DNA from: Escherichia phage MRostami-2023e
Sequence record: OQ031495
Length of the DNA: 64,000 bases
Direction: 5' to 3' (one strand)
Below are positions 3,994 through 61,530 of this stretch, piece after piece; within the stretch, counting starts at the first letter, position 1, and each line of letters begins with the position of its first letter. A program made the position numbers and the translations under genes. The notes under the pieces are model-generated. The model saw only the letters and a list, made by a program, of their open reading frames with translations. It was not told the DNA's origin and searched no databases.

Positions 3994-4029
3994 GTTTACA
4001 ACTAAGTAGGACTATGATATAGTAGTCCT
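3994..4029 (+). promoter_or_regulatory. early promoter (GTTTAC -35, TG-extended TATAGT -10) with palindrome TAGGACTA/TAGTCCTA around the -10
   Basis: gtttac 3994-3999, tgatatagt 4015-4023, inverted repeat 4006-4013 / 4022-4029. Confidence 0.6.
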
Positions 4030-4049
4030 ATCTAAAAGAGGATAACATC

Positions 4050-4313
4050 ATGAAATTTAAATTTTTCTACGCAAAACATAAAGTAACAGGCGAATTTGTT
4101 TCAATGTACAACACTGCAGATGACGAAGGGATGATTTACACCCATTTGGGTCTATCTCATTGGGACTCAGACGTGCCTTATATGTCATCTGAAGCCGAAA
4201 TAACTCGTTTAGTTAACGGGCATATGAACGACCATTTTGGTGTTATTCTTTCTAAAGACCTTAAAGAGGTTATCAATAAAGGATATATGGAACTCGCGGA
4301 AGTTGAGATATGA
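4050..4313 (+). CDS. hypothetical early protein
   Basis: 87-aa ORF with RBS, downstream of early promoter. Confidence 0.55.
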   Translation: MKFKFFYAKHKVTGEFVSMYNTADDEGMIYTHLGLSHWDSDVPYMSSEAEITRLVNGHMNDHFGVILSKDLKEVINKGYMELAEVEI

Positions 4314-4396
4314 GCTCTAAAATGTGGATCGGAATATGGTTGCTTAGTATCCCAATGATTTGTATAATATTTTCAATTGTGTTGAGGTACTTATGA
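4310..4396 (+). CDS. small hydrophobic peptide (28 aa), putative
   Basis: MSSKMWIGIWLLSIPMICIIFSIVLRYL; ATGA start/stop overlap with the upstream ORF; below the 60-aa track cutoff. Confidence 0.3.
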   Translation: MSSKMWIGIWLLSIPMICIIFSIVLRYL

Positions 4397-4503
4397 AAAA
4401 TGCACTTCTTATTGTACTAAGAACAATTTGTGATACTGGTTTTTACATTGCATGTTCGTTCACTGGAACATGGTTGGCTTTAACATATTTTAATGTAATT
4501 TAA
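4393..4503 (+). CDS. small hydrophobic peptide (36 aa), putative
   Basis: MKNALLIVLRTICDTGFYIACSFTGTWLALTYFNVI; ATGA overlap with the previous small ORF. Confidence 0.3.
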   Translation: MKNALLIVLRTICDTGFYIACSFTGTWLALTYFNVI

Positions 4504-4505
4504 TT

Positions 4506-4544
4506 GTTTACATCACGGTAGGATTATGGTATAGTAGTCCTATC
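4506..4544 (+). promoter_or_regulatory. early promoter with imperfect palindrome around the -10
   Basis: gtttac 4506-4511; taggattatggtatagtagtcctatc. Confidence 0.55.
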
Positions 4545-4563
4545 AAAACACAAGGAACACAAA

Positions 4564-4764
4564 ATGGCTAAGCTTTTTAAAGATGTTGAAATTGGTGAAA
4601 AATTTGTTCTGAATAATGGTCAGCAGCTTATTCGTGTAGCTTCTATCGCCGGACAAACTCATAACTGTATCGCCCCAACGTGTTGGACTCGATTCTTTAT
4701 TGAAGATGACACTGAATGTTTAACTGTTGAAGAGCTTTTTGAACGTTCTGATATAGCCGAATAA
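4564..4764 (+). CDS. hypothetical early protein
   Basis: 66-aa ORF with AAGGAA RBS downstream of promoter. Confidence 0.55.
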   Translation: MAKLFKDVEIGEKFVLNNGQQLIRVASIAGQTHNCIAPTCWTRFFIEDDTECLTVEELFERSDIAE

Positions 4765-4767
4765 AAT

Positions 4768-4802
4768 TGTACAAACTCTTGAGAGCAGAGTATAATGCTC
4801 TC
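4768..4802 (+). promoter_or_regulatory. early promoter (TTGTAC -35, TATAAT -10) with palindrome GAGAGCA/TGCTCTC flanking the -10
   Basis: ttgtacaaactcttgagagcagagtataatgctctc. Confidence 0.55.
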
Positions 4803-4840
4803 ATGGATTACAAAAACATTAATCAATTGAGGAAATTAGC

Positions 4841-5287
4841 ATGTCCAAATATTTAACTCGTAAAGACCTTCTGACAGTTGGTGGTGAAGTTGTTGCAGTA
4901 GTTCGTAATGGCGAATACGGTTCTGAAGTTTCTAAAGAGTTTCGTTCTCGTGAAGGTTTTTACTTCTTCGTTAAAGGTTCATCTGATTGGCGACAAGTAG
5001 CAGCACGATTCTTTGTAGGACGTCAACGTTCTAAACAAGGGTTGGATGCAATTCTTTCTCATATTCGTCAAGGCCGTTCGCAACTAGCCCGTACTATGGG
5101 CACTAACAATATTGAATATGATGTAATCTTTGTTGCAGCTAAGAACATGAAACCACTGACTACTGGTTATGGTAAAGGACAATTGACTCTGGCATTCACT
5201 CGCAACCATACATCAGAGTATCAAACACTCACTGAAATGAACCGTCTTCTGGCAGATAATTTCAAATTCATTCTGCAGAGTTACTAA
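4841..5287 (+). CDS. ndd: nucleoid disruption protein Ndd
   Basis: 148 aa; ..[59 protein letters not shown] matches T4 Ndd. Confidence 0.9.
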
Positions 5288-6956: not shown

Positions 6957-7033
6957 GTGCCCTAGCCTTAGGATTTCTCGGTGCAATAGCTGTACTAGTG
7001 ATTTGGCTGTATTGGTTGGACAAACATGATTAG
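6953..7033 (+). CDS. possible 26-aa hydrophobic peptide with TTG start
   Basis: GGAGG RBS 6944-6948 then TTG; LSALALGFLGAIAVLVIWLYWLDKHD; overlaps the gene 52 stop; speculative. Confidence 0.25.
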   Translation: MSALALGFLGAIAVLVIWLYWLDKHD

Positions 7034-7054
7034 GGAGCTTCGGCTCCCTTTTGT
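7033..7054 (+). terminator. intrinsic terminator, GGGAGC-UUCG-GCUCCC plus T tract
   Basis: gggagcttcggctcccttttgtg after gene 52. Confidence 0.7.
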
Positions 7055-7074
7055 GCATTTTTCTCACAAAACAG

Positions 7075-7105
7075 TTTACTTTTGCTTCAAACATGATAGT
7101 ATAGA
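7075..7105 (+). promoter_or_regulatory. early promoter with embedded MotA-box-like TGCTTCA (possible early/middle hybrid)
   Basis: gtttac 7075-7080; tgcttca 7083-7089; -10 region gatagtataga. Confidence 0.55.
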
Positions 7106-7141
7106 CCTATCAAAACAAAACAACCAAATTGGAGAAATAAA

Positions 7142-7357
7142 ATGTCTAAAATGAAATTAACCCAAAACACAACTACTCGTTTCGGTAAAGTTAAACCTGG
7201 TATGAATGCTCCACGTAAAGCACTTGTTGAAGAATTAAATTTCTTAGAAGTTGAAATCAATTCTTTAGTGGTTCGCGGTTCAAATGGACATCATTTAGAA
7301 AAGCTTCGTTCTAAAAAGGCAAAACTTATTAGCCTTATTAAAGAAATGAGTTTGTAA
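7142..7357 (+). CDS. hypothetical basic early protein
   Basis: 71-aa ORF, GGAGAAATAAAATG RBS/start; MSKMKLTQ.. Confidence 0.55.
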   Translation: MSKMKLTQNTTTRFGKVKPGMNAPRKALVEELNFLEVEINSLVVRGSNGHHLEKLRSKKAKLISLIKEMSL

Positions 7358-7394: not shown

Positions 7395-7426
7395 GTTTAC
7401 TTTTGCTTCAAACATGATATTATAGA
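7395..7426 (+). promoter_or_regulatory. early promoter with MotA-box-like TGCTTCA; near-identical copy of the 7075 cassette
   Basis: gtttacttttgcttcaaacatgatattatagacctatcaaaacaaa. Confidence 0.55.
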
Positions 7427-7460
7427 CCTATCAAAACAAATACTAATTTGGAGAAATAAA

Positions 7461-8093
7461 ATGTCTAAAGTTACTTACATCATCAAAGCTTCTGAAAACG
7501 CTCTGAATGAAAAAACTGCTGCAATAATGGTTTATATCATTAAGAACAACTTCACCACTGCTGCCAATGTCCGTGAAGCTCTGGAAGCAGAATACAATGC
7601 ATCGGTTGTTAACTCTAACATTGGTGTATTGATTAAGAAAGGTTTAGTCGAAAAATCCGGTGATGGACTTGTAGCAACAGGCGAAGCAATGGATATTATC
7701 CAAAAAGCTGCAGACCTCTTTGCCCAAGAAAATGCTCCAGAACTTCTTCAGAAACGTAACACTAGAAAAGCACGTGGAGTTACTCCTGAAATGCATGAAT
7801 TAGCAAACTTTGTTTTTGAAAATATTAAAGATAAAGTTGAAGTTAAAGAAATTGGTGAAAACCGTAGTAACTTGGAAGTTCGATTTGCAAAACGAGTTCT
7901 AGGTATTCGTCAGATCGAAATTCGTCGAGATGGTTCTCTTAGAATCTTTGCATACAACATGTCAGAAACTGAATCAAAGCTGTTTACTTCTCTTGAAAAT
8001 GATGTTAAGATTAAGATCGGTGGTAAATATACTTACATTGACTTCCCTAATGTGTCCAAAGAAATCATTACCCTTGTAACTAACGTACTGTGA
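7461..8093 (+). CDS. motA: MotA, activator of middle-mode transcription
   Basis: 210 aa; MSKVTYIIKAS..NSNIGVLIKKGLVEKSGDGL..ENAPELL matches T4 MotA (211 aa). Confidence 0.9.
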   Translation: MSKVTYIIKASENALNEKTAAIMVYIIKNNFTTAANVREALEAEYNASVVNSNIGVLIKKGLVEKSGDGLVATGEAMDIIQKAADLFAQENAPELLQKRNTRKARGVTPEMHELANFVFENIKDKVEVKEIGENRSNLEVRFAKRVLGIRQIEIRRDGSLRIFAYNMSETESKLFTSLENDVKIKIGGKYTYIDFPNVSKEIITLVTNVL

Positions 8094-9772: not shown

Positions 9773-9923
9773 TCTTCAGAACGTAGTAGAGGCCGAACGT
9801 GAGCGTGAGGCCTTAGTCTATAATGAATTATTAGCTCTGTTCTTAGCCTTACACTCGTACGAACAGGAAGACTATACCAATTACGTTAAAAGCGTAGAAA
9901 AAGCCGTTTACAATCAACACTGA
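9762..9923 (+). CDS. hypothetical small protein
   Basis: ATG 9762 preceded by AAGGAA; the track ORF 9723-9923 starts further upstream in the same frame. Confidence 0.4.
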   Translation: MSHNLQNVVEAEREREALVYNELLALFLALHSYEQEDYTNYVKSVEKAVYNQH

Positions 9924-9969
9924 TAATGGTACTATATCCATATCAACTAAGTGGAATGAATAAAACGTT

Positions 9970-10242
9970 ATGAATAAAGACATTGAAATCGTACGTGAAA
10001 TTATTACTATTGCTTCTATTTTGATTAAATTCTCTAGGGAAGATATTGTTGAAGACCGAGCAAGTTTCATCGGATTCTTGAATGAGATTGGAATTAAAAA
10101 AGATGGTCGGCAGCTAAATCAGAATTCGTTCAGAAAACTAATTACAAATTTAACTGCCGAAGAAAAGAAAACACTGATTAGTGAATTCAATGAAGGTTTT
10201 GAAAATATTTATCGTCATTTAGCGATGTATTCTAACAACTAA
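9970..10242 (+). CDS. hypothetical protein
   Basis: 90-aa ORF; its stop abuts the convergent holin gene. Confidence 0.5.
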   Translation: MNKDIEIVREIITIASILIKFSREDIVEDRASFIGFLNEIGIKKDGRQLNQNSFRKLITNLTAEEKKTLISEFNEGFENIYRHLAMYSNN

Positions 10243-20522: not shown

Positions 20523-20552
20523 GTTTACGCTTTCAAATGAGTGTGTTACTAT
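20523..20552 (+). promoter_or_regulatory. early promoter for rnh, back-to-back with the gene 34 late promoter
   Basis: gtttac 20523-20528; tgttactatag. Confidence 0.5.
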
Positions 20553-20584
20553 AGACAAGTTGACTAACTGAACAAGAGGTTCAT

Positions 20585-21502
20585 ATGGATTTAGAAATGA
20601 TGTTGGATGAAGATTACAAAGAAGGTATTGCACTTGCCGACTTTAGTAACATTGCGTTGGCCGCCGCATTAAACAACTTTGAAGACGGTGATAAAATTAC
20701 TGTTCCAATGGTTCGACATGTAATCTTGAATTCAATTCGTAAAAACGTAGTGATGTTCCGTAAGCAAGGCTATACAAAATTTGTATTGTGTATGGATAAT
20801 GCTACTTCGGGTTATTGGCGTCGTGACTTTGCTTACTATTACAAGAAAAATCGCAAAACCGATCGTGAAGCTTCAAAGTGGGATTGGGAAGGATATTTTA
20901 CTGCACTCCATCAAGTTGTTGATGAGATTAAGAAATACATGCCATACGTTGTAATGGATATTGACAAGTATGAAGCGGATGACCATATCGGTGTATTAAC
21001 TAAATATTTGTCATTAGCTGGACATAAAGTATGTATTGTTGCATCAGATGGTGACTTTACACAATTACACAAATATCCTAACGTTAAACAGTGGTCGCCA
21101 CCACAGAAAAAATGGGTTAAAATTAAGAATGGTTCTGCTGAAATTGATTGCATGACTAAAATTCTTAAAGGCGACCGTAAGGATGGTGTTGCATCTGTTC
21201 GAGTTCGTGGTGACTTCTGGTTTACTCGAGTTGAAGGTGAACGAACTCCAAGCATGAAAACAACAATTATTGAAGCAATTGCTAATGACCGTTCTCAAGC
21301 TGAAGTGTTATTAAGTGCTGAAGAATATAAACGGTACCAAGAAAATTTGGTTCTCATTGATTTTGATTATATCCCTGATAATATTGCTTCAACCATTATA
21401 GAGTATTATAACTCATATAAACAACAACCTAAAGGCAAGATTTATTCATACTTTGTAAAATCGGGTCTTTCTAAATTAACAAGTGTAATTAACGAATTCT
21501 GA
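20585..21502 (+). CDS. rnh: RNase H (5'-3' exonuclease / flap endonuclease)
   Basis: 305 aa; ..FKYVLCMDNATSGYWRRDFAYYYKKNRK.. matches T4 RNase H (305 aa). Confidence 0.93.
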   Translation: MDLEMMLDEDYKEGIALADFSNIALAAALNNFEDGDKITVPMVRHVILNSIRKNVVMFRKQGYTKFVLCMDNATSGYWRRDFAYYYKKNRKTDREASKWDWEGYFTALHQVVDEIKKYMPYVVMDIDKYEADDHIGVLTKYLSLAGHKVCIVASDGDFTQLHKYPNVKQWSPPQKKWVKIKNGSAEIDCMTKILKGDRKDGVASVRVRGDFWFTRVEGERTPSMKTTIIEAIANDRSQAEVLLSAEEYKRYQENLVLIDFDYIPDNIASTIIEYYNSYKQQPKGKIYSYFVKSGLSKLTSVINEF

Positions 21503-23768: not shown

Positions 23769-23791
23769 GGGAGACTTCGGTCTCCCTTTTG
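23769..23791 (+). terminator. GGGAGAC-UUCG-GUCUCCC terminator plus T tract
   Basis: gggagacttcggtctcccttttg after gene 32. Confidence 0.75.
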
Positions 23792-23817
23792 AGTATCTGT
23801 AAATTGCCGAAAAAGTT

Positions 23818-23850
23818 GTTTACTTCTCCTCTAGGTATGATATTATAGAC
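23818..23850 (+). promoter_or_regulatory. early promoter
   Basis: gtttac 23818-23823, tgatattatag, then ctatcaaaacaaa leader. Confidence 0.55.
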
Positions 23851-23876
23851 CTATCAAAACAAACGAGGAAATCAAA

Positions 23877-24281
23877 ATGGAAGTCGGAAAAACGTACATC
23901 ATTAACCCTTTATCTAAAAATGACTTTGNNNNNNNNNNNNNNNNNNNNNNNNNNNNNNNNNNNNNNNNNNNNNNNNNNNNNNNNNNNNNNNNNNNNNNNN
24001 NNNNNNNNNNNNNNNNNNNNNNNNNNNNNNNNNNNNNNNNNNNNNNNNNNNNNNNNNNNNNNNNNNNNNNNNNNNNNNNNNNNNNNNNNNNNNNNNNNNN
24101 NNNNNNNNNNNNNNNNNNNNNNNNNNNNNNNNNNNNNNNNTACTTTACCGAGGTAACATTAGAAAAGCCTCAACAGGTTAACGAAGGTATAGATTTGGGT
24201 GTAACAAAAATTCATTGTGTTGTAGATAAAACCAACGTCGATGAAATCATTGAACTTTTACAAAAAACTTTTAAAAAGTAG
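23877..24281 (+). CDS. hypothetical protein, mostly masked by a 212-nt N block
   Basis: ATG with RBS after promoter; ends ..IELLQKTFKK; interior unknown. Confidence 0.35.
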   Translation: MEVGKTYIINPLSKNDFXXXXXXXXXXXXXXXXXXXXXXXXXXXXXXXXXXXXXXXXXXXXXXXXXXXXXXXXXXXXXXXXXXXXXXXYFTEVTLEKPQQVNEGIDLGVTKIHCVVDKTNVDEIIELLQKTFKK

Positions 24282-24316
24282 TTTACACCATGATAGGGCT
24301 ATGTTATAGTAGTCCT
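24281..24316 (+). promoter_or_regulatory. early promoter with imperfect palindrome around the -10
   Basis: gtttac 24281-24286; tagggctatgttatagtagtcctatc. Confidence 0.55.
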
Positions 24317-24342
24317 ATCAAATAAAAGTGAAGGAGAATAAA

Positions 24343-24591
24343 ATGAGATTGCAACGCCAAAGCATCAAAGATTCAGAAGTTAGAGGTAAATGGTACTTCA
24401 ACATCGTCGGTAAAGACGCTGAACTCCTTGAACAAGCTGAAGAAGCTTTACGTGAAATGGGTTGGAACGAAGAATGTGATGGATGTCCACTCTACGAAGA
24501 TGGTGAAAGCGCAGGATTCTGGATTCACCACTCTGATGTTGAATCGTTTAAAGCTGATTGGAAAGTTGTTAAGAAAAATCTGAGGAAATAA
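24343..24591 (+). CDS. hypothetical protein
   Basis: AAGGAG RBS 24331-24336 then ATG 24343; the track ORF starts at an upstream GTG. Confidence 0.5.
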   Translation: MRLQRQSIKDSEVRGKWYFNIVGKDAELLEQAEEALREMGWNEECDGCPLYEDGESAGFWIHHSDVESFKADWKVVKKNLRK

Positions 24592-30140: not shown

Positions 30141-30549
30141 GAAAGATATTGCCGCCGAATATTCCTTTATTAAATATACAGAATTGGAGCTATTAGAAGA
30201 TGCAACAATTAAAACAGTTGATGTCCCTAATAAGAAAAATGTCATATACGCTATTGCTATAGATGACGAACTTGTGTATATTGGTAAAACCAAGAATTTA
30301 AAGAAACGCATTAACTATTATCGAACAGCCATAAATCGAAAAGACCAGACTTCAGATTCAAGAAAATCACTTATGATTTTGGATGCCTTAATGCAAGGCA
30401 AAAAGGTTGAATTCTGGGCCCGCCAATGTTTTGACCTTTCAGTCACCAACGAACTTGGTTCAATGACCATCGCAACAATGGACCTTGAAGAACCGCTTTT
30501 TATCAAAAAGTTCAACCCGCCTTGGAATATCCAACATAAGAAAAAGTAG
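30139..30549 (+). CDS. denA: endonuclease II (GIY-YIG family)
   Basis: 136 aa; GIY-YIG motif VIYAIAIDDELVYIGKTKNLKKRINYYR; matches T4 DenA. Confidence 0.9.
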   Translation: MKDIAAEYSFIKYTELELLEDATIKTVDVPNKKNVIYAIAIDDELVYIGKTKNLKKRINYYRTAINRKDQTSDSRKSLMILDALMQGKKVEFWARQCFDLSVTNELGSMTIATMDLEEPLFIKKFNPPWNIQHKKK

Positions 30550-30578: not shown

Positions 30579-30595
30579 TTAAAAAAACTAACTGA

Positions 30596-31729
<1,134 letters not shown>

Positions 31730-35300: not shown

Positions 35301-35321
35301 CAACACAATGAGGAAAACAGA

Positions 35322-35558
35322 ATGCTAAGTGAAAACCCAATTACAGTGCACGAATTTCAGATTAAAGTAAAAGAATTTGCTCAAGCACTCATAAATAAAG
35401 TGTCTGAACGTTTCAAGGATGCAACATTACGAGTTATTCAAGAATCTCCACGTTCTTTTCTCATAATTGTTAATCCTAAAGATGGCGACCAAATTACTAA
35501 TCTTAAATTAGGCAGTGATGGTCTTGTTGAAGCAACTCGAGTATATGGAACACTATAA
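35322..35558 (+). CDS. hypothetical protein
   Basis: 78-aa ORF. Confidence 0.5.
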   Translation: MLSENPITVHEFQIKVKEFAQALINKVSERFKDATLRVIQESPRSFLIIVNPKDGDQITNLKLGSDGLVEATRVYGTL

Positions 35559-38767: not shown

Positions 38768-38790
38768 GGGAGACTTCGGTCTCCCTTTTG
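38768..38790 (+). terminator. GGGAGAC-UUCG-GUCUCCC terminator plus T tract
   Basis: gggagacttcggtctcccttttgtg. Confidence 0.75.
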
Positions 38791-38821
38791 TGCGTTTAGG
38801 GCAGAAAAAGTTTAAAAAGAT

Positions 38822-38850
38822 GTTTACTCTCCTGTAGGATGTGTTACTAT
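38822..38850 (+). promoter_or_regulatory. early promoter
   Basis: gtttac 38822-38827; tgttactatag. Confidence 0.55.
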
Positions 38851-38892
38851 AGACTTGTACCATCTAATCAATAAAACCACCTGGAGAACAAA

Positions 38893-39261
38893 ATGAAAAT
38901 CAATCTGAACTCATACATCAAATGTAAAGACCACGATGGTTATAAAGCTATCGAAATTAAAGAATTCCAGTGGATGTTATACAAAGAGCAATTTGAGTTC
39001 GTAGGTTGTATGACCCCTGAAGGTCCTTCTGATGATTTCTCTTGGAAAATTGTGTTAGCAAACTTTTTCACAGGTGACACATACGAATTAAAAACTATTA
39101 TTACCGGTAAAATTCGTTCAGAAACATATGTTGACGAAGAAACTGGTTACTCTGAAGATGTTACATGGTATCAAAATGGACGCATTACAGCAGATAACCT
39201 GATCGAAAAAATGAAAGCCAAAGGTGTTTTAAATTTAGACAATTGGATTAAAGTTGCATAA
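38893..39261 (+). CDS. hypothetical protein
   Basis: 122-aa ORF after promoter. Confidence 0.55.
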   Translation: MKINLNSYIKCKDHDGYKAIEIKEFQWMLYKEQFEFVGCMTPEGPSDDFSWKIVLANFFTGDTYELKTIITGKIRSETYVDEETGYSEDVTWYQNGRITADNLIEKMKAKGVLNLDNWIKVA

Positions 39262-39265
39262 AACA

Positions 39266-39305
39266 GTTTACTTTGGTACAGGTTATGTTATTATAGACCT
39301 GTACC
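39266..39305 (+). promoter_or_regulatory. early promoter with palindrome GGTACAGG/CCTGTACC flanking the -10
   Basis: gtttac 39266-39271; ggtacaggttatgttattatagacctgtacc. Confidence 0.55.
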
Positions 39306-39335
39306 AACAAACAACTTAAACATCTGGAGAATAAA

Positions 39336-39701
39336 ATGAACTACACCAACTTCGAACGTAAATATGTTTCTAACGGTATCGCTGGTTCTATCGATATGGT
39401 TTGTTTGTGGAAGCATAAAAATGGTTCAGTATGTGAAATTGAGCAGTATATGACTCCTAATTATGTTTATATGCGATTTGAAAATGGCATCACGGTTTCA
39501 ATCACAATGGAAGGTTCCAACTTCAAAATTGCATTAGATGATGATTTCCGTCAACGTGATTTAGGTACTCATCCTTGCTGGAATGGTGTTAATCGTAAAC
39601 TTCTGGTTAAAACTTGGATTCGTCATATCCTGAGTAACCGAGCTAAACCTGAACATCTCGAAGCAATCTTTGATGTAGTTCTTAACGAATTTGATATCTA
39701 A
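39336..39701 (+). CDS. hypothetical protein
   Basis: 121-aa ORF. Confidence 0.55.
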   Translation: MNYTNFERKYVSNGIAGSIDMVCLWKHKNGSVCEIEQYMTPNYVYMRFENGITVSITMEGSNFKIALDDDFRQRDLGTHPCWNGVNRKLLVKTWIRHILSNRAKPEHLEAIFDVVLNEFDI

Positions 39702-39736: not shown

Positions 39737-40351
39737 ATGTTTAAAGTTAATACTTTTTATAAAATGAATTTTAAAAATGGGGATATTACTCCACGCCTTA
39801 AAAACATGTTCTCATATGATCTTATCGAGCCTTTTGAAGTTTTAGAAGTTACTGATGCTGGCTCGGTTTGTGAAATTAGAACGTCTGAAGGTAAAATTTA
39901 TCAGGCAGGTGTTGGTAAATTTAGTAATTGTTTTACTTTAATATTCTCGACTGATTTAGATGAGCATTTTATTGAATGTCCTAACCCTAAGGTCCATGAA
40001 GTTCCACATCAAGAAACTAAGAAAAACGGCCCACACGAATATACGAAGGTTGAAACTCCTCACGGCGTGATGTGGCGTCATAACTCTCCTTTTGGAAGTA
40101 AAGGAACATTTGCTCAACTGCCTAAACCTTATGACGATGAAAAATACATCGTCGCCTTTTTATCTGAACAGGGTACTCAAGACCGTGGATGTCAACGAAG
40201 TGGTTTACTAAGTGAACTTGAAGCTCATAACCAAGCACGTGAATTCGTTGAGAAAAATCCTGGCTCTGAAGCTCTAGTCATGAAAGCAATTACTCAATAT
40301 ATCACTGCTCAACCTGTTGTTCATCCGGTAGAAATTAATTTCATTAAGTAG
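39737..40351 (+). CDS. hypothetical protein
   Basis: 204-aa ORF. Confidence 0.55.
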   Translation: MFKVNTFYKMNFKNGDITPRLKNMFSYDLIEPFEVLEVTDAGSVCEIRTSEGKIYQAGVGKFSNCFTLIFSTDLDEHFIECPNPKVHEVPHQETKKNGPHEYTKVETPHGVMWRHNSPFGSKGTFAQLPKPYDDEKYIVAFLSEQGTQDRGCQRSGLLSELEAHNQAREFVEKNPGSEALVMKAITQYITAQPVVHPVEINFIK

Positions 40352-40381
40352 TTTACATCCAAGGACGGATTAGAGTATAAT
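40351..40381 (+). promoter_or_regulatory. early promoter
   Basis: gtttac 40351-40356; tagagtataat. Confidence 0.5.
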
Positions 40382-40405
40382 GATTTCTTTAGTAAGTGGA
40401 AAAAT

Positions 40406-40603
40406 ATGAAATTTTTAATAGCACAAACAGTCCAATTAAAAGGTGTTGGAATTCCTGGGGTGATTTTTAAAGTTCTCCCTGAATTTAAAACCGCCGCTGG
40501 AATTATCAATGAAGCGTATGCTGTTCAATGGGTTGATTGGACTTCTGACATACGTATGGGTAAAGAGTTATCTCCTATTAAAGGGTTGAAACATGTTGAA
40601 TAA
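40406..40603 (+). CDS. hypothetical protein
   Basis: 65-aa ORF. Confidence 0.45.
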   Translation: MKFLIAQTVQLKGVGIPGVIFKVLPEFKTAAGIINEAYAVQWVDWTSDIRMGKELSPIKGLKHVE

Positions 40604-44080: not shown

Positions 44081-46168
44081 ATGTCTGAACAATTAAATGA
44101 AGTGTTTGAATCTGAAGGCAGTCTTCCTGTCGTCAATTTGAACCCTAAAGCTAAAGTTCCACAAGTCTGGAAAATTGGTGATATCGATACAAATATTGTA
44201 GTTCGTTTATTCTCTTACCTTTCCGAAGGCGACGCTGTAAAACAAGTTAAACTTGGCGACAAATACGCTCATGTTGTTATTATGAGTCTGTCTGAAAAGG
44301 GTAATCTCGCTGAATTGAAAAATGGCCTTGGTCCTGCTCCTATTGATGCAATCAACACCATTTTCAATACAGTATATGAACAAGTTAAAGCTCTTCGTAT
44401 GGATGCCGTTCTGTTTCGATTCCCTACCAAGAAATTGAAAGGACGTGGACAACAGCTTCAAACTCTTCTTGCTCGTTTAGTTTCTACTAAAACCGGTGGT
44501 CGTTTTAAAGTATTGTCGGCAATGTATCAATTCACAGGTAAACACACCTATGTGATGATGGTTCGTAAAAATGCCAACATTGAAGATATTAAAGGCATCC
44601 CTAACATTAACACAGAGTTGTATACGAAAGTAGATTCTGATGTTGGCGAAGTTTATGTGAGTAAAAAGACCGGCGAAACGGTCACCAAAGAAACGGCTAT
44701 CGCTGGTTCTATTGCTGCTGTAGAAGAAAAACGTAAAGATAAGCCTGTTATTGCTCGTACTAAAATTTCTCGTCGTGCTATTGCGGCAAGTCAATCTTTA
44801 GAAGCTGACCGCCAAGAAGGTGAGTTATTCCAGAAATACGAAAATTCTGCTAAAGAAGTTAGCGGCCCAGCTACAGCCGAATTACTTCCTGAAGCATATG
44901 AAATCGTACTAGCCCAAGCATCGTCCACAGCAAAAGGCACTTTAGTTGCTGATATCGAAAATAAGATTTATAATCGTATTGATGAATCCTTTAGATTTGC
45001 TGATGAAGTTTCTTATGGTAGTGTTATTAAGCCAACTTTAGAAAAGTTTGCTAAGAAAATTAAAACTGAAAAAACAACATCTGTTAAAGCATTAGCTGCT
45101 TTTGTTGAAGCTGCAAACGAAATTGCAGACTCTATTAAAGACGAATGGTTTGAAGATTTTAGACGTGATAATTTCCAACTGGCCGACGATGTTTTAGCTG
45201 AAGTATCTGAAAAAACTTGGAAACAACGTAAATCAGCGTTCTTGTCTAATGTGATGTATACTTATGCACGAGAATCGGCTAGAGGCACCTTTAATATAAC
45301 AATGAATCGGGACCCTAAACAATACTCTGTTGCTGAAAAACGAGCTATTCGTGAATATGCCTCTTCTGCGTATACCGATATCAATAATATGTTGTTAGGT
45401 CGTTATAAACCAGATTTTTACGATGTTGCGGATGAAGATGAAGTTAAACGCGCTATTGATGGTCTTGATTCAGCGTTTTTAAATGGAGACCGTTTACCTG
45501 AAGGACTAACGTTATATAGAGCTCAGTCTATCAGAATGCCTATTTACGAAGCAATGGTTAAAAATAAGGTATTCTACTTCAGAAACTATGTTTCCACTTC
45601 ACTAGCTCCTATTATTTTCGGTGGGTTTAAAGAGAACGTTGCCCTTGGACTTGCTCCTGAAGAAGTTCGCAAAGAGCTTAACATTGACAATAATGATGAA
45701 GGTGTTACTATTTCTCCTAGTCAAGTAAGAACAGCTATGCATGCGCCAGAACAAATCCGTGTTAACGTTGGATGGGCTATTGATGGCGCCCATAAAGTTA
45801 ACGTGATTTATCCGGGACAGTTGAGTAATCACCCTAATGAGCAAGAAATTATTTTGCCTAGAGGCATTCTCTTACAGATAAATAAAATTACAGATGCGTC
45901 ATCTGACACTGGTGCGGGTTTAGAATCCAACCTTAAATTTATTCAAGCTGAAGTCATGTCCTCGGACCAGTTGGACGAAGCTGTCATTTATGATGGTGAT
46001 GTTCTCATGGAAACAGGCGAGGTGGTTGCTATGACGGGTGAAATCGAATCAGATGAGCCGGTATCGTTCTCTTCATTTGTAGAAAAAACTAGTGCACCTA
46101 AAGGATTGAAATTGTTAGCATCTTTAATGGATTTAGAATCAGTTCCGTTTAAATTTGTCCAAGGATAG
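44081..46168 (+). CDS. alt: Alt-like ADP-ribosyltransferase (virion-packaged, modifies host RNA polymerase)
   Basis: 695 aa; position next to gene 30 as in T4; C-terminal ART signature R..STS..EQE (LYRAQ, NYVSTSLAP, NEQEIILPRG). Confidence 0.8.
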   Translation: MSEQLNEVFESEGSLPVVNLNPKAKVPQVWKIGDIDTNIVVRLFSYLSEGDAVKQVKLGDKYAHVVIMSLSEKGNLAELKNGLGPAPIDAINTIFNTVYEQVKALRMDAVLFRFPTKKLKGRGQQLQTLLARLVSTKTGGRFKVLSAMYQFTGKHTYVMMVRKNANIEDIKGIPNINTELYTKVDSDVGEVYVSKKTGETVTKETAIAGSIAAVEEKRKDKPVIARTKISRRAIAASQSLEADRQEGELFQKYENSAKEVSGPATAELLPEAYEIVLAQASSTAKGTLVADIENKIYNRIDESFRFADEVSYGSVIKPTLEKFAKKIKTEKTTSVKALAAFVEAANEIADSIKDEWFEDFRRDNFQLADDVLAEVSEKTWKQRKSAFLSNVMYTYARESARGTFNITMNRDPKQYSVAEKRAIREYASSAYTDINNMLLGRYKPDFYDVADEDEVKRAIDGLDSAFLNGDRLPEGLTLYRAQSIRMPIYEAMVKNKVFYFRNYVSTSLAPIIFGGFKENVALGLAPEEVRKELNIDNNDEGVTISPSQVRTAMHAPEQIRVNVGWAIDGAHKVNVIYPGQLSNHPNEQEIILPRGILLQINKITDASSDTGAGLESNLKFIQAEVMSSDQLDEAVIYDGDVLMETGEVVAMTGEIESDEPVSFSSFVEKTSAPKGLKLLASLMDLESVPFKFVQG

Positions 46169-46200
46169 TTTACAAACACATGGATGTGTGATACTATCAT
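46168..46200 (+). promoter_or_regulatory. early promoter with palindrome ACACATG/CATGTGT-like in the spacer
   Basis: gtttac 46168-46173; acacatggatgtgtgatactat. Confidence 0.5.
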
Positions 46201-46226
46201 CCCATCAACAACATGAGGAAAACGTT

Positions 46227-46520
46227 ATGAAATCTATGCTTCGCTTTAATGGTCAAGAACTAGTAGTTGAAGATACTATCCCAGCGGATGATGCTTTTAA
46301 CGAAGCTGTGATTGACGAATTGAATCGAGTATTCCCAGGTGCATTCCATATTGCTATGGAACCTCTTAAAAACTTTCGTGACCCTGAGCACACTGATCAA
46401 ATTTTTATCGGTGTAGTGACAGGTCATTTAGAAACAGAGGTACCAATGGTCGTATTAGTTAAATACTCTAAAGATGATACTCCATTCCGAGCACCAGCAT
46501 TCCTTTCATTCCGTAAATAA
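46227..46520 (+). CDS. hypothetical protein
   Basis: ATG 46227 after promoter; 97 aa. Confidence 0.5.
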   Translation: MKSMLRFNGQELVVEDTIPADDAFNEAVIDELNRVFPGAFHIAMEPLKNFRDPEHTDQIFIGVVTGHLETEVPMVVLVKYSKDDTPFRAPAFLSFRK

Positions 46521-58515: not shown

Positions 58516-58577
58516 AAAGCATACAAAACACATCTTGAGATTGATGTATATAATGGCACAAACCAAATAATACGGGA

Positions 58578-58778
58578 TTGATTATGAGAGCTGAAGTTGA
58601 AGTTTATACATTACATGGGGCGGGATTTTCATTCGTAGAAATTGCTCAAAAAATTGGTTTACAACCTAAAGAAGTTGGATTACTATGGACTAAAGCCGAG
58701 ACAGCTCGGTCAAAGTTTAAAGCAAAAGAAAAAGTTGTATACCGTAAACGTTTGATTAACAAAAAGGTGAAGAAATGA
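58578..58778 (+). CDS. hypothetical protein
   Basis: 66-aa ORF. Confidence 0.5.
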   Translation: MIMRAEVEVYTLHGAGFSFVEIAQKIGLQPKEVGLLWTKAETARSKFKAKEKVVYRKRLINKKVKK

Positions 58779-59026
58779 GTTTTGCACAGGAATTAAGAGA
58801 AAGGGCTCTGGCCACTAAAGCTAATTTGTTGAGTGATTTTATTACTAACTTCTCTGTGATGGCAGAGAAAGCCGCTGATAAAGGCCAGACACAATTCACG
58901 TACTACCCGTCAAAGAATGATTTAACTATCACTGAGCAAGTCGGGCAGTGGTTACGTGATAATGGCTTTCAGTATAAAATTAATCACGACCAGCGTGATG
59001 GTCATTGGATAGAAATCAAGTTCTAA
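58775..59026 (+). CDS. hypothetical protein
   Basis: 83-aa ORF, ATGA overlap. Confidence 0.5.
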   Translation: MSFAQELRERALATKANLLSDFITNFSVMAEKAADKGQTQFTYYPSKNDLTITEQVGQWLRDNGFQYKINHDQRDGHWIEIKF

Positions 59027-59145
59027 TATGCTTTACATTTTTTGATGGTATAATGAATCTAGGTTCTATCCATTCAAATTAAACATCTGGTCGGAGACAG
59101 AGTCTCTGCTAATTATTTTGATATTATTATTTATAATGGTGATTT

Positions 59146-60145
59146 ATGTTTAAGAAATACAGCAGTCTTGAAAACCACTACAACTCTAAGTTTATTGAAA
59201 AACTCTACACTAATGGTTTGACTACTGGTGTTTGGGTAGCACGTGAGAAAATCCATGGGACCAACTTCTCGTTAATAATTGAACGTGACAACGTCACATG
59301 CGCCAAGCGCACAGGCCCTATTCTTCCAGCAGAAGATTTTTATGGTTATGAAATTGTACTCAAGAAGTATGATAAGGCTATTAAAAACGTTCAAGAAGTA
59401 ATGGGTAGTTCTCGAGCTGTATCATATCAGGTCTTTGGTGAATTCGCTGGTGGTGGAATCCAGAAAGGTGTTGACTACGGTGAAAAAGATTTTTATGTGT
59501 TCGATATCCTTATCAATACAGAAAGTGGTGATAATACGTATTTGACCGATTACGAAATGCAAGATTTCTGTAATGAATTCGGTTTTAAAATGGCACCAAT
59601 GCTTGGTCGTGGCACATTTGATGCTCTTATCATGATTCCAAACGACCTTGATTCTGTCTTAGCCGCTTATAATGCTACTGCGTCAGAAGACCTTGTCGAA
59701 GCAAATAATTGCGTATTTGATGCTAATGTTATTGGTGATAATACTGCGGAAGGTTATGTTCTGAAGCCTTGTTTCCCCTAAATGGCTGCCAAACGGTACT
59801 CGTGTAGCTATTAAGTGCAAGAACTCTAAATTCAGTGAAAAGAAAAAGTCTGATAAGCCTATTAAAACTCAGGTTCCATTAACCGAAACTGACAAAAACT
59901 TGCTTGATGTTCTAGCTTGTTATGTTACATTAAATCGTATTAATAATGTGATTTCTAAGATTGGGACTGTAACGCCAAAAGATTTTGGCAAAGTGATGGG
60001 ATTGACTGTTCAAGATATTCTGGAAGAAACTTCTCGTGAAGGTATTGTATTAACATCATCTGATAATCCGAATCTTGTTAAGAAAGAATTAGTCAGAATG
60101 GTGCAAGATGTTCTGCGTCCTGCATGGATTGAATTAGTATCATAA
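59146..60145 (+). CDS. rnlB: RNA ligase 2, reading frame interrupted by an apparent 1-nt insertion near 59779-59782
   Basis: [33 protein letters not shown].. N-terminal part ends at TAA 59781; C-terminal part ..[26 protein letters not shown] continues in frame +1; 1000 nt = 333 codons + 1. Confidence 0.85.
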
Positions 60146-60152
60146 CGAAAAA

Positions 60153-60176
60153 GGGACCTTACGGTCCCTTTTTTTT
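60153..60176. terminator. bidirectional terminator: GGGACC-UUAC-GGUCCC with T/A tracts on both sides
   Basis: aaaaagggaccttacggtccctttttttt between convergent rnlB (+) and gp24 (-). Confidence 0.7.
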
Positions 60177-61458
60177 ATTCATCTATAATAATTTTAGGCA
60201 ATTTAACACCGAGTAAAACAGACAAGTCTGAACGTCCTGCCATTTTATCCATGTCCCCACCATCAATTATTCTCGCTTCTTTTTCGTCTTTTGCTACTGT
60301 GTAAGGATTTGCTGATAAAGCATATCTAACCAATAATCCGATAGACGGTTGCAAGCTTTCTGGATCAACTACAACTTTAAAAGCACCGACATGTTCTGGG
60401 TCATCTAAATCTACTCCTTCAGTGTATGGAGCATAAAAGATGGACCCTACAATTTCTTTTTCGCCGAGATTTTCTACAACACCCACAATAACATAATCTA
60501 ACGGGCTGTTGGTATCGCAGTAAAGAGGTAATCCATTTGCCAAGAATCCATAAGCATTTTGTGAAAGATACTTGTCATCTTCTGGCTTATGTTTTAACCA
60601 ACCAGAAGCAGCAAGAATAGCAGCTGCACGAGCTGAGGCTACACAAAACGTTGCGGTATAAGTTGTCTCTTTTTGAATGTGTGATACCATTTCACACACC
60701 ATTCGATATAATGAACGACCTGCTTCTGGAGCGGATGCATAGCTCAAGTCAATAAATCCAGTGTCAGTAATTCCAGTAACTTTATAACGTTTCGATACAG
60801 TAATTAAAGACTGAAGAATATCTTTATTAATTTCATCTGCCATTTCAGTAGCAAGCAAATCTTCTAAGAAGTTAGGGGCATCAAATCCATTCGCTTCCAA
60901 ATCTTGCGCTAATTCAACCGTGAGGCCAGTTTTAAGTTTACGAGATTTGACTGAAGTTTGCCATTTATTAATCTGGAATCTTGCATCAGAAATTTCGCTA
61001 TCAGAGCTTTCAAATTTGCTTGTTACCGCTGCATCTGAAAATAACCGTACCTTTAAATGAACGACTGCAATCTGAAGAGCTAATTCTAGATCACTTTCTT
61101 GAATATCTGCAAATGGTGTATCTTCTAACACTTTATAGACGATATTATTATATTTGAAAAAATCGCCTTTATTTAGTGTGACTTTTGATTCTTCTGTGAG
61201 CTCAGTAATTTTTTCTCGGTCTACGTATCCAGCTTCACCCGCATAAGTAGCGCCAGTTTTAAATGTGAATTCGTTATCTGGGTTAAGATATTTGATACCA
61301 TAAAAAGCAGCAACAGGTTGATTAGTTCTTTGTGTTGCTACAATGTCAGAATATATTAATTTAGTCGTAGCGCGAGTCAAAGCAACGAGATTTGGGCGAC
61401 CAATTGAGTTGCTAGTAGACGTTGTAGATTCACGCAATAATTTTTGGATTTTACTCAT
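60175..61458 (-). CDS. 24: gp24 head vertex protein
   Basis: 427 aa, same as T4 gp24; paralogous to gp23. Confidence 0.93.
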   Translation of the reverse strand: MSKIQKLLRESTTSTSNSIGRPNLVALTRATTKLIYSDIVATQRTNQPVAAFYGIKYLNPDNEFTFKTGATYAGEAGYVDREKITELTEESKVTLNKGDFFKYNNIVYKVLEDTPFADIQESDLELALQIAVVHLKVRLFSDAAVTSKFESSDSEISDARFQINKWQTSVKSRKLKTGLTVELAQDLEANGFDAPNFLEDLLATEMADEINKDILQSLITVSKRYKVTGITDTGFIDLSYASAPEAGRSLYRMVCEMVSHIQKETTYTATFCVASARAAAILAASGWLKHKPEDDKYLSQNAYGFLANGLPLYCDTNSPLDYVIVGVVENLGEKEIVGSIFYAPYTEGVDLDDPEHVGAFKVVVDPESLQPSIGLLVRYALSANPYTVAKDEKEARIIDGGDMDKMAGRSDLSVLLGVKLPKIIIDE

Positions 61459-61485
61459 TGCATTTTTTCCTTATGTGATATAGAT

Positions 61486-61493
61486 TATTTATA
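61486..61493 (-). promoter_or_regulatory. late promoter TATAAATA for gene 24
   Basis: plus-strand tatttata 28 nt upstream of the gp24 start. Confidence 0.6.
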
Positions 61494-61499
61494 AAGATT

Positions 61500-61530
61500 G
61501 TTTACAACGTATTTGGTATATGATACTATA
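61500..61530 (+). promoter_or_regulatory. early promoter
   Basis: gtttac 61500-61505; tatgatactatag. Confidence 0.5.

What the first reader, a model, noticed from the sequence alone, without database searches (positions are those of the whole stretch)
3994..61530. Seventeen early promoter cassettes, many with palindromes around the -10 (PeSL-like)
At least 17 + strand sites share a GTTTAC -35, a spacer of about 17-19 bp and a TG-extended TATAAT-like -10. Many are followed by a conserved leader (CTATCAAAACAAA...GGAGAAATAAAATG). In most, an 7-8 bp inverted repeat brackets or overlaps the -10, for example TAGGACTA/TAGTCCTA at 4006-4029, GAGAGCA/TGCTCTC at 4781-4802, GGTACAGG/CCTGTACC at 39275-39305 and GTAGAGTT/AACTCTAC at 35275-35300. 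This matches the promoter-early-stem-loop elements described for T4-type phages as mobile regulatory cassettes. They cluster in front of the small unknown ORFs, marking modular shuffling sites. The palindromes would form hairpins in the transcript or in single-stranded DNA.
Basis: partly seen in the sequence, partly recalled or inferred. Interest (0 to 1): 0.55.

Follow-up and report, generated by a model that had tools for sequence, protein, structure and literature searches.

The report
Phage early promoters with overlapping hairpins
This stretch of an RB69-like (T4-type) phage genome holds 18 strong early promoters, seven of them overlaid by a conserved hairpin-forming repeat, a composite signal of a kind already described in related phages and so real but mostly known.

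Summary
The window is a Mosigvirus (RB69-like T-even) segment running from rIIA to beyond uvsW. The motif is real. Eighteen + strand sites score at least 12 bits with a −35/−10-only matrix, against none on the − strand, and each lies 18-38 nt before a gene start. They match the GTTTAC-type early-promoter consensus for which 57 sites were predicted in RB69 in 2006.

"Most have a palindrome round the −10" is overstated. Seven of 18 carry a significant helix (RNA fold z −2.8 to −4.85). About four have a stem inside the spacer. Three have a canonical terminator just upstream.

The helix sits at a fixed register: 5' arm about −23 to −16, loop TGnTATA, 3' arm −7 to about +4. The same register stands out in T4. 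Pairing is kept by compensatory changes at orthologous promoters. Its only internal mismatches are G·U on the sense strand (19 G·U, 0 A·C), which points to a single-stranded, probably RNA, structure.

Because the 5' arm lies upstream of the start site, the hairpin can exist only in read-through transcripts from upstream promoters. One indel shows recombination between two tandem cassettes.

Verdict: PeSL-like composite cassettes, a new member of a known kind. Their function is inferred, not shown.

The parts
3994..4052 (+). Early promoter cassette P3994 (GTTTAC, 18 nt, TATAGT at 4018; ATG 4050; 87-aa ORF of unknown function). Bracketing helix 4006-4015 / 4022-4031.
   Evidence: (dG -13.2, z -2.95)
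4506..4566 (+). Early promoter cassette P4506 (-10 at 4530; ATG 4564; 66-aa unknown ORF). Bracketing helix 4517-4527 / 4534-4544, with G.U pairs.
   Evidence: (dG -13.7, z -4.03)
4767..4843 (+). Early promoter cassette with a TTGTAC -35 (-10 TATAAT at 4791; ATG 4841 = ndd). Bracketing helix 4780-4787 / 4796-4803.
   Evidence: 12.4 bits; dG -13.9, z -2.8; the orthologous ndd promoter of Gaprivervirus TH57 has three compensatory double changes.
7033..7058 (+). Canonical intrinsic terminator GGGAGCTTCGGCTCCC plus T-run, immediately upstream of P7074.
7074..7144 (+). Early promoter cassette P7074 (-10 TAGTAT at 7097; ATG 7142; 71-aa unknown ORF). No bracketing helix. It is the first copy of a tandem cassette repeat.
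   Evidence: (z -0.7)
7395..7463 (+). Early promoter cassette P7395 (-10 TATTAT at 7418; ATG 7461 = motA). It is the second copy of the tandem cassette. Relative mar005p1 has a single cassette fused to motA and lacks the 71-aa ORF.
   Evidence: (z +0.8)
9906..9972 (+). Early promoter cassette P9906 (-10 TACTAT at 9930; ATG 9970 = asiA). It has only a weak, interrupted stem.
   Evidence: dG -6.2, z -2.1
20523..20587 (+). Early promoter cassette P20523 (-10 at 20547; ATG 20585 = rnh-like exonuclease). It is the first + strand promoter after the - strand tail-fibre block. No hairpin.
   Evidence: (z -0.1)
23769..23796 (+). Canonical terminator GGGAGACTTCGGTCTCCC plus TTTT, just upstream of P23818.
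23818..23879 (+). Early promoter cassette P23818 (17-nt spacer beginning TTCTCCTC; -10 TATTAT at 23841; ATG 23877; small hypothetical ORF, partly N-masked). No significant helix.
   Evidence: (z +0.6)
24281..24345 (+). Early promoter cassette P24281 (-10 TATAGT at 24305; ATG 24343; 82-aa unknown ORF). Bracketing helix 24291-24302 / 24309-24320. The upstream stop codon overlaps the -35 (TAGTTTAC).
   Evidence: (dG -16.9, z -4.71); the T4 and TH57 orthologous promoters each have a different helix.
30549..30607 (+). Early promoter cassette P30549 (-10 TACAAT at 30573; ATG 30605 = rnlA). Stem wholly inside the spacer, 30557-30563 / 30567-30573 (CCACAAGGATTGTGG).
   Evidence: (dG -7.5, z -1.6)
31732..31793 (+). 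Early promoter cassette P31732 (-10 TACTAT at 31756; ATG 31791 = alc). Short spacer stem CACCAAGGATGGTG at 31741-31754.
   Evidence: (z +0.1)
33137..33197 (+). Early promoter cassette P33137 (-10 TATAAT at 33161; ATG 33195; 99-aa unknown ORF). Bracketing helix 33151-33157 / 33166-33172. It is a paralogue of the 4767 cassette, with an A-U to G-C compensatory change.
   Evidence: (dG -12.2, z -2.81)
35263..35324 (+). Early promoter cassette P35263 (-10 TACTAT at 35287; ATG 35322; 78-aa unknown ORF). Bracketing helix 35273-35285 / 35290-35302.
   Evidence: dG -17.2, z -4.85; the T4 ortholog (protein 70% identical) keeps the helix, with a U.G change.
38768..38795 (+). Canonical terminator GGGAGACTTCGGTCTCCC plus TTTT, just upstream of P38822.
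38822..38895 (+). Early promoter cassette P38822 (17-nt spacer; -10 TACTAT at 38845; ATG 38893; 122-aa unknown ORF). No bracketing helix.
   Evidence: (z +0.4)
39266..39338 (+). Early promoter cassette P39266 (17-nt spacer; -10 TATTAT at 39289; ATG 39336; 121-aa unknown ORF). Bracketing helix 39273-39287 / 39292-39307.
   Evidence: dG -17.9, z -4.25; the same helix is present at the T4 and TH57 orthologs.
40351..40408 (+). Early promoter cassette P40351 (19-nt spacer; -10 TATAAT at 40376; ATG 40406; 65-aa ORF). It has only a 4-bp spacer stem, ATCCAAGGACGGAT.
   Evidence: (z +0.2)
46168..46229 (+). Early promoter cassette P46168 (-10 TACTAT at 46192; ATG 46227; 97-aa unknown ORF downstream of alt). 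It has a 5-bp spacer stem, ACACATGGATGTGT.
   Evidence: (z +0.6)
61500..61562 (+). Early promoter cassette P61500 (-10 TACTAT at 61524; ATG 61560; 89-aa unknown ORF). It starts a + strand unit after a - strand ORF (60175-61458). No hairpin.
   Evidence: (z -0.1)

Best explanation
The 18 motifs are the host sigma-70-dependent early promoters of an RB69-like T-even phage. Each has an A-rich UP-like tract, a GTTTAC −35, a 17-19 nt gap to a TGn-extended TAnnAT −10, a C/A-rich start region, and then an SD and ATG.

Seven compact cassettes have the upstream gene's stop codon 0-13 nt from the −35. In these a second signal is written over the promoter. It is a 7-13 bp helix at a fixed register: 5' arm in the spacer at about −23 to −16, loop = TGnTATA, 3' arm from −7 to about +4.

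Pairing is selected on the sense strand only, so the helix acts as a single strand, most likely RNA. Its 5' arm lies upstream of the start site. It therefore exists only in transcripts that read through from upstream early promoters.

Inferred role: it punctuates the upstream message, by attenuation or by defining and protecting its 3' end. This is the job done by canonical UUCG-loop terminators at the cassettes with longer intergenic spaces. The same DNA meanwhile launches a fresh, hairpin-free transcript for the next gene.

The repeated cassettes are also occasional substrates for homologous recombination that adds or removes the flanked small ORF.

Shown here: the motif, its strand bias, the helix, its register, covariation and one recombination event. 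Inferred: promoter activity, read-through, and what the RNA hairpin does.
For: Promoters:
- Strand-exclusive hits of the −35/−10 matrix: 18 v 0 at 12 bits or more in the window, 57 v 1 in a whole relative genome, 37 v 0 in T4.
- All sites lie 18-38 nt before a gene start.
- The consensus is the one published for RB69 and T4 early promoters.

The helix is real:
- Fold z is −2.8 to −4.85 at 7 sites.
- Swapping halves between promoters gives P < 2e-4.
- The same excess is seen genome-wide: mar005p1 20/44, T4 13/37, against 8-12% in swaps.
- Over 123 distinct promoters, Watson-Crick pairing is 0.42-0.45 at one register and about 0.27 at all others.
- On 78 promoters not selected for stems, 59.4% of cells pair against 53.1 ± 1.0 shuffled and 31-45% slid. 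Covariation is 0.304 against 0.217 ± 0.013 (0 of 500 shuffles).

Compensatory changes at orthologous promoters:
- ndd: TGAGAGCA/TGCTCTCA in the window, TGGGGTCA/TGACCCCA in Gaprivervirus TH57.
- The helices at 35263 and 39266 are kept in T4.

Sense-strand specificity: internal non-Watson-Crick pairs in 33 helices are 19 G·U, 0 A·C and 1 other. Chance helices give 17%/16%/67% at random positions and 32%/19%/49% in swaps.

Punctuation role:
- A bracketing helix and an upstream canonical terminator never co-occur: 0 of 21 against 10 of 60 in mar005p1 plus T4, Fisher P = 0.04.
- All 7 helices are at promoters with a co-oriented early promoter upstream.
- The two promoters that open a unit after opposite-strand genes (20523, 61500) have no hairpin.
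- In RB49, one PeSL stem-loop lowered downstream lacZ as much as rrnB T1 (PMC2839356).

Recombination: mar005p1 has one cassette where the window has two flanking a 71-aa ORF, and the junction lies inside the repeat.
Against: - No transcript data exist for this phage. Start sites, read-through and 3' ends are all inferred.
- The helices are followed by UAUCAAAACAA, not a U-run. The terminator scan flags none of them on the + strand. Efficient intrinsic termination is therefore unlikely, and 'punctuation' remains vague.
- 11 of 18 promoters lack the helix, so it is not required for promoter function or for every gene junction.
- The mutual exclusion with terminators is only marginally significant.
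- The G·U asymmetry would also fit a hairpin in the non-template DNA strand.
- Orthologs are not independent. About 12 independent G·U events give P of about 0.004.
Confidence: 0.6

Rival explanations
1. The palindromes act in double-stranded DNA. They extrude as cruciforms or otherwise mark the cassettes as recombination hot spots, as in PeSL mini-circle formation or endonuclease VII cleavage. Their purpose would be modular shuffling rather than RNA function.
For: [quoted passage not shown] One cassette-to-cassette indel is seen here. The stems have short A/T-rich loops.
Against: A cruciform needs both strands to pair, yet every transition-type mismatch is G.T on the sense strand (19:0), which is A.C on the other strand. 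The one recombination event involves two cassettes that have no bracketing helix. The helix-bearing cassettes share only 15-18 nt of exact identity. Five of the six indels examined carry no cassette.
Confidence: 0.12
2. The stems are efficient intrinsic transcription terminators, as claimed for the RB49 PeSL stem-loop. They would fully insulate each small gene as its own transcription unit.
For: One RB49 stem-loop reduced lacZ like rrnB T1. The helices occupy the same place as canonical terminators at other cassettes and never co-occur with them.
Against: There is no U-tract after the 3' arm, and the + strand terminator scan does not report them. The stems are A/U-rich (dG -12 to -18 kcal/mol), unlike the G/C-rich UUCG terminators nearby.
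Confidence: 0.1
3. A hairpin in the non-template DNA strand presents the -10 in a loop and modulates open-complex formation or the early-promoter shut-off.
For: The loop is exactly TGnTATA. The strand asymmetry of G.T pairs fits the non-template strand as well as RNA. The shut-off mechanism of T4 early promoters is described as not completely understood.
Against: The 5' arm (-23 to -16) stays duplex in an open complex. T-7, which sigma must flip out, would be paired. Most promoters, including strong consensus ones, lack the helix. No precedent was found in the reviews read.
Confidence: 0.08
4. The inverted repeats are a by-product of the promoter consensus, of a dimeric DNA-binding protein site, or of chance.
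For: The commonest arms (TAGGnCTA / TAGTCCTA) overlap the consensus start region TAGaCCTATCAA.
Against: Swapping halves between promoters, which preserves the consensus, destroys the signal. At least five unrelated arm sequences occupy the same register, with compensatory changes, which rules out a sequence-specific operator.
Confidence: 0.03

Closest known systems
[quoted passage not shown] 2010, PMC2839356)
   Same: Both are composite intergenic cassettes: an A/T-rich tract, a sigma-70-type early promoter, a stem-loop that can lie between -35 and -10 or overlap the -10 (with G-T pairs), then SD and ATG. Both sit mostly before small ORFs of unknown function. Recombination between tandem copies adds or removes the flanked ORF.
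   Different: RB49 promoters are near-perfect TTGACA/TATAAT and the stems are G/C-rich (polyG/polyC) in five variable positions. Here the -35 is GTTTAC, and the stems are A/U-rich and sit at one fixed register. Only 7 of 18 sites have them. Terminator activity and mini-circles were shown experimentally only for RB49/phi1. The authors regard the T-even elements as analogues, not homologues.
PeSLs of T4/PST (Comeau et al. 2014, PMC4122927) and the early-promoter/stem-loop elements at T-even internal-protein loci (Repoila et al. 1994, as cited)
   Same: Same promoter consensus (TTTACW-N17-TAYWAT), same phage subfamily, A/T-rich stems, and association with variable small ORFs.
   Different: The 2014 paper places the T4/PST stem-loops just upstream of the promoter (AGNA-loop-TCNT). 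That corresponds to the UUCG terminators seen here before P7074, P23818 and P38822. The fixed -10-bracketing helix, which I also find in 7-13 of 37 T4 promoters, is not described in the texts I could read. The 1994 paper is not held.
Predicted early promoters of RB69 (Nolan et al. 2006, PMC1524935)
   Same: Same genus and same motif: GTTTAC at -36 to -31, an A-rich -40 to -44, T-12/A-11/T-7, and C-rich -3 to -1. That paper predicted 57 promoters, many before novel ORFs; I find 57 matrix hits in a relative.
   Different: That paper does not mention stem-loops, hairpins or palindromes at the promoters.
T4 genes e, soc, 49 and I-TevI: a hairpin in the long upstream transcript, with a promoter inside it that frees the ribosome-binding site (my own knowledge of the T4 literature, not read here)
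   Same: The logic is the same. The structure exists only in read-through RNA, because the internal promoter starts transcription inside or after it.
   Different: In those cases the hairpin sequesters the SD and the internal promoter is late or middle. The seven helices in this window end at +1 to +4 and leave the SD free. SD-pairing variants occur at early promoters in the relative genome and in T4, but not in this window.

Membership tests
PeSL-type composite cassette | A/T-rich tract upstream of the -35 | tested here: met
   The 14 nt upstream are 77% A+T and 46% A, against 62% and 31% for the window.
PeSL-type composite cassette | Sigma-70-like early promoter (sequence level) | tested here: met
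   GTTTAC/TGnTAnnAT sites: 18 v 0 by strand, all directly before genes.
PeSL-type composite cassette | Promoter active early in infection | not testable with these tools
   No transcript data. The RefSeq T4 record carries no promoter features.
PeSL-type composite cassette | Stable stem-loop within or next to the promoter | tested here: inconclusive
   Met at 7 of 18 sites (bracketing the -10). A further 3 sites have an upstream terminator and about 4 have short spacer stems. Four to five cassettes have none.
PeSL-type composite cassette | SD and start codon at the 3' end | tested here: met
   18 of 18.
PeSL-type composite cassette | Preferential location in plastic regions before ORFs of unknown function | tested here: met
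   12 of 18 sites precede 65-134 aa ORFs of unknown function. None lies in the tail-fibre or baseplate blocks.
PeSL-type composite cassette | Indels between close relatives have endpoints in the cassettes | tested here: inconclusive
   There is one clean case (7074/7395 against mar005p1). Five other indels carry no cassette.
PeSL-type composite cassette | Stem-loop terminates or attenuates upstream transcription; mini-circles form | not testable with these tools
   Shown only for RB49/phi1. Here there is no U-tract after the stems.
PeSL-type composite cassette | Homology to the RB49/phi1 PeSL sequence family | not tested
   RB49 sequence was not fetched. Arbiol et al. state that the T-even elements are analogues, not homologues.
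T-even (T4/RB69) early promoter | GTTTAC at -36 to -31, an A-rich -40s tract, TGn, T-12 A-11 T-7, all on the early-gene strand | tested here: met
   The same matrix finds 37 sites on the early strand of T4 and none on the other strand.
Intrinsic (Rho-independent) terminator | G/C-rich stem followed by a U-run | tested here: not met
   The seven bracketing helices are followed by TATCAAAAC-type sequence and are not reported on the + strand. The three UUCG hairpins upstream of other promoters do meet this feature.

The most novel reading that the evidence does not exclude
T-even early promoters routinely carry a second, RNA-level signal in the same 46 nt of DNA. It is a register-fixed hairpin or, in a second class, an anti-SD stretch in the promoter spacer that pairs with the next gene's ribosome-binding site. 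Either one exists only in read-through transcripts. Read-through and promoter-proximal copies of the same gene would then have systematically different fates in processing, stability or translatability. This would extend the e/soc/49 logic of T4 from a few late genes to a large share of early genes across several genera.
Probability: 0.35. Interest if true: 0.55.

Novelty: new member of a known kind. Interest (0 to 1): 0.35.

Why it matters
If the inference holds, about a third to nearly half of T-even early promoters are dual-coded: one stretch of DNA serves as a promoter and, read from upstream, as an RNA hairpin. That would help explain how dozens of tandem strong promoters in the plastic regions avoid piling up read-through expression. 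It would also give a simple sequence rule for annotating transcription units in the hundreds of T4-like phages now used for therapy. The sense-strand-only covariation offers a clean way to tell the RNA model from the DNA recombination model of PeSLs, a question the original papers left open. For the window itself the result is mainly a confirmation of known elements.

Tried and rejected
- IMG/VR searches with Ndd and polynucleotide kinase returned only 3 and 6 loci, too few for ortholog statistics. I used whole genomes from the phage collection instead.
- The RefSeq T4 record has no promoter features, so curated T4 promoters could not be cross-checked.
- Repoila et al. 1994 is not held.
- A literature search for T4 start-site or terminator maps found nothing usable.
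- Rfam gave no hit in the window.
- A generic TTGACA/TATAAT scan does not separate these sites from shuffles.
- Hidden promoters under the 15 masked N runs: none in the matching vB_EQ1 sequence.
- SD-sequestering (anti-SD) stems: none of 7 or more pairs in the window.
- Rejected, on the swap controls and the multiple arm families: the palindrome as a consensus artefact or a protein operator.
- My first coordinate transfer from vB_EQ1 was wrong, because the window differs from that record by small indels and N runs. It was corrected by BLAST.

Full report
**What the window is.**
Window 30000-36000 is 100% identical to Escherichia phage vB_EQ1 and 98-99% identical to many Mosigvirus (RB69-like) genomes. 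Across the full window it matches vB_EQ1 at essentially 100%, apart from small indels and 15 masked N runs. Read on the + strand it runs from rIIA through rIIB, denB, ndd, motA and asiA. It then crosses the − strand tail-fibre block and continues through rnh, frd/td, nrdAB, denA, rnlA, alc, pseT, cd, ligase and alt. After the − strand baseplate block come uvsY and the genes beyond.

**The observation.**
- Seventeen + strand sites have an exact GTTTAC followed after 17-19 nt by a TAnnnT hexamer. An eighteenth has TTGTAC.
- A matrix built only from the −35 block and the TGn/−10 block gives 18 hits on + and none on − at 12 bits or more. It gives 57 v 1 in the whole genome of the relative mar005p1 and 37 v 0 in T4.
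- Fifteen of 18 sites have TGn, and the upstream 14 nt are A-rich.
- Every site is followed by an SD and ATG, with a predicted 5' UTR of 18-38 nt.
- A generic sigma-70 scan is not enriched over shuffles, so the signal is the phage-specific motif.
- This is the early-promoter consensus published for RB69 and T4. Nolan et al. 2006 predicted 57 sites in RB69 and did not mention hairpins.

**The palindromes.**
- Folding the 46-nt cores as RNA gives z of −2.8 to −4.85 and dG of −12.2 to −17.9 kcal/mol for seven sites: 3994, 4506, 4767, 24281, 33137, 35263 and 39266. P9906 gives z −2.1. The other ten are at chance level. 'In most' is therefore overstated.
- The excess is still strong. When the 5' half of one promoter is paired with the 3' half of another, which keeps the consensus, the mean best stem falls from 6.6 to 4.8 ± 0.28. 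None of 5000 permutations reaches the observed value.
- Three cassettes without a helix have a canonical UUCG-loop terminator immediately upstream (7033, 23769, 38768).
- About four others have short stems wholly inside the spacer with a recurrent AAGGA loop.

**The helix has a fixed register and is not peculiar to this phage.**
- Taking the first base of the −10 hexamer as 0, paired positions sum to 1, or to 2 with a 17-nt spacer. The 5' arm is at promoter positions about −23 to −16, the loop is TGnTATA, and the 3' arm runs from T−7 to +1 to +4.
- Over 123 distinct promoters from the window, three Mosigvirus genomes, a Gaprivervirus and T4, Watson-Crick pairing is 0.42-0.45 at that register and about 0.27 at every other one. 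This holds in T4 alone as well.
- T4 has 13 of 37 promoters with such stems, against 9% in swaps.
- On an ungapped alignment of 78 distinct 18-nt-spacer promoters not selected for stems, 59.4% of cells pair against 53.1 ± 1.0 in shuffles (0 of 500) and 31-45% when slid. The covariation score is 0.304 against 0.217 ± 0.013 (0 of 500) and 0.11-0.20 when slid.

**Conservation at orthologous promoters.**
- The promoter of the 78-aa ORF at 35322 has the same helix in T4, where the protein is 70% identical. It differs by one U·G.
- The promoter of the ORF at 39336 has the GGTACAGG/CCTGTACC helix in T4 and in Gaprivervirus TH57.
- The ndd promoter has TGAGAGCA/TGCTCTCA here and TGGGGTCA/TGACCCCA in TH57, which is three compensatory double substitutions.
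- The promoter of the ORF at 24343 has a helix in all three genera, but with different arms and register.

**Which molecule folds.**
In 33 helices scored with equal penalties for every non-Watson-Crick pair, the internal mismatches are 19 G·T, 0 A·C and 1 other. Chance helices give 17%/16%/67% at random positions and 32%/19%/49% in swaps. About 12 of the G·T cases are independent, giving P of about 0.004. A G·T on the sense strand is an A·C on the other strand. A symmetric double-stranded DNA structure (cruciform) or a dimeric protein site is therefore disfavoured. The structure is selected on the sense strand, either as RNA or, less likely, as the non-template DNA strand.

**Consequence.**
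With transcription starting about 7 nt after the hexamer, a promoter's own transcript contains none of the 5' arm and at most 4 nt of the 3' arm. The hairpin can form only in transcripts arriving from upstream. The context fits this reading, although the numbers are small.
- All seven helix-bearing promoters have a co-oriented early promoter upstream and no canonical terminator in between.
- Their upstream stop codon is 0-13 nt from the −35, which leaves no room for a separate terminator.
- A bracketing helix and an upstream terminator never co-occur (0 of 21 against 10 of 60 in mar005p1 plus T4; Fisher P = 0.04).
- The two promoters that open a unit after opposite-strand genes have no hairpin.
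- The helices lack a U-run and are not flagged as terminators on the + strand.

I infer attenuation, or 3'-end definition and protection of the upstream message, rather than efficient intrinsic termination. This step is inference.

**Modular shuffling.**
- The window, vB_EQ1 and TH12 have two tandem cassettes (7073-7150 and 7394-7469). They share 47 nt with one mismatch plus 22 identical nt that include ATGTCTAAA, and they flank a 71-aa ORF.
- mar005p1 has a single cassette joined directly to motA. That is what recombination between the two copies would produce.
- Five other indels against four close relatives carry no promoter hit.
- Other cassette pairs share only 14-27 nt of exact identity.
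- Twelve of 18 promoters precede 65-134 aa ORFs of unknown function. Six precede ndd, motA, asiA, rnh, rnlA or alc.

**Comparison with what is known.**
- PeSLs of RB49/phi1 are defined as an A/T-rich tract, a sigma-70 promoter, a stem-loop in one of five positions (most often between −35 and −10 or overlapping the −10), then SD and ATG. They lie in plastic regions. One stem-loop was shown to lower downstream expression, and recombination between copies yields mini-circles.
- The 2014 paper extends PeSLs to T4/PST but places the stems just upstream of the promoter.
- The 2010 discussion notes that Repoila et al. 1994 saw analogous elements, built on T4 early promoters with A/T-rich stems, at the internal-protein loci. 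It calls them analogues, not homologues.
- The window's cassettes fit this kind. The fixed register, its presence in T4, the sense-strand-only covariation and the exclusion from the promoter's own transcript are not stated in the texts I could read. They refine a known element rather than define a new one.

**Verdict.**
This is a new member of a known kind, of moderate to low interest (0.35).

Noticed in passing
window 1269-1332, 8245-8280, 12229-13207 (four runs), 23417-23474, 23929-24140, 26133-26222, 26528-26614, 29440-29522, 38317-38380, 40663-40685, 58006-58067, 58267-58274: Fifteen runs of N mask parts of the window. In vB_EQ1 the matching stretches are mostly coding and hold no promoter hit. 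Some lengths differ, for example 87 N against 296 nt at 26528-26614.
   Followed up: partly
mar005p1 (L012-L015, reverse strand) 1947, 116499, 119737, 158002; T4 (L020-L023, reverse strand) 30752, 33360: Early promoters with a 17-nt spacer carry TTCTCCTC... in the spacer. It pairs over 8-11 bp with the SD region of the downstream gene, with compensatory changes (CTCTAG/CTAGAG v CCAGTAG/CTACTGG). Read-through RNA would have its ribosome-binding site sequestered, while the promoter's own transcript would not. Counts are 5/44 and 4/37 against 1.8 and 1.0 expected from swaps. None reaches this strength in the window.
   Followed up: partly
window 30557-30573, 31741-31754, 40357-40370, 46176-46189: Short stems lie wholly inside the promoter spacer, with a recurrent AAGGA loop (CCACAAGGATTGTGG and similar). 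They are also present in T4. Stems of 5 bp or more occur in 17/123 promoters against 3.6% of random 19-mers. AAGGA occurs in 14/123 spacers against 1.9%.
   Followed up: partly
window 7033-7048, 23769-23786, 38768-38785, 39709-39724: Near-identical UUCG-tetraloop terminators, GGGAG(A)CTTCGG(T)CTCCC plus a T-run. Three of them sit directly upstream of early promoters that lack a bracketing helix.
   Followed up: yes
window 7073-7150 and 7394-7469: A tandem duplicated promoter/leader/ATGTCTAAA cassette flanks a 71-aa ORF. The relative mar005p1 has a single copy fused to motA.
   Followed up: yes
window about 38300-38440; vB_EQ1 (L001) and mar005p1 equivalents: The intergenic stretch after rIII is partly masked in the window. 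In the relatives it is about 140 nt long and looks G/C-richer with possible internal pairing (…GGTGATTCGCTACC…GATTAATGATTTGCGAATCATTA…). It may be a structured RNA. No Rfam hit was found in the unmasked window.
   Followed up: no
window 22093, 25967, 29608, 56626: Relatives carry insertions of 0.67-1.1 kb at these points (TH12, TH12, BEU50 and mar005p1 respectively) with no early-promoter hit. They look like mobile endonuclease-type insertions, but their content was not examined.
   Followed up: no
window 24279-24286, 30547-30554, 33135-33142, 46166-46173 and others: In 10 of 18 cassettes the upstream ORF's stop codon is within 4 nt of, or overlaps, the -35 (TAGTTTAC). Many downstream SDs contain GGAG, the target motif of the RegB endoribonuclease.
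   Followed up: partly
window 58657-58692: An intermediate-scoring + strand promoter-like site (18.4 bits; GTTTAC, 18 nt, TACTAT). It appears to lie inside coding sequence and has no SD or ATG after it. It is conserved in mar005p1.
   Followed up: no
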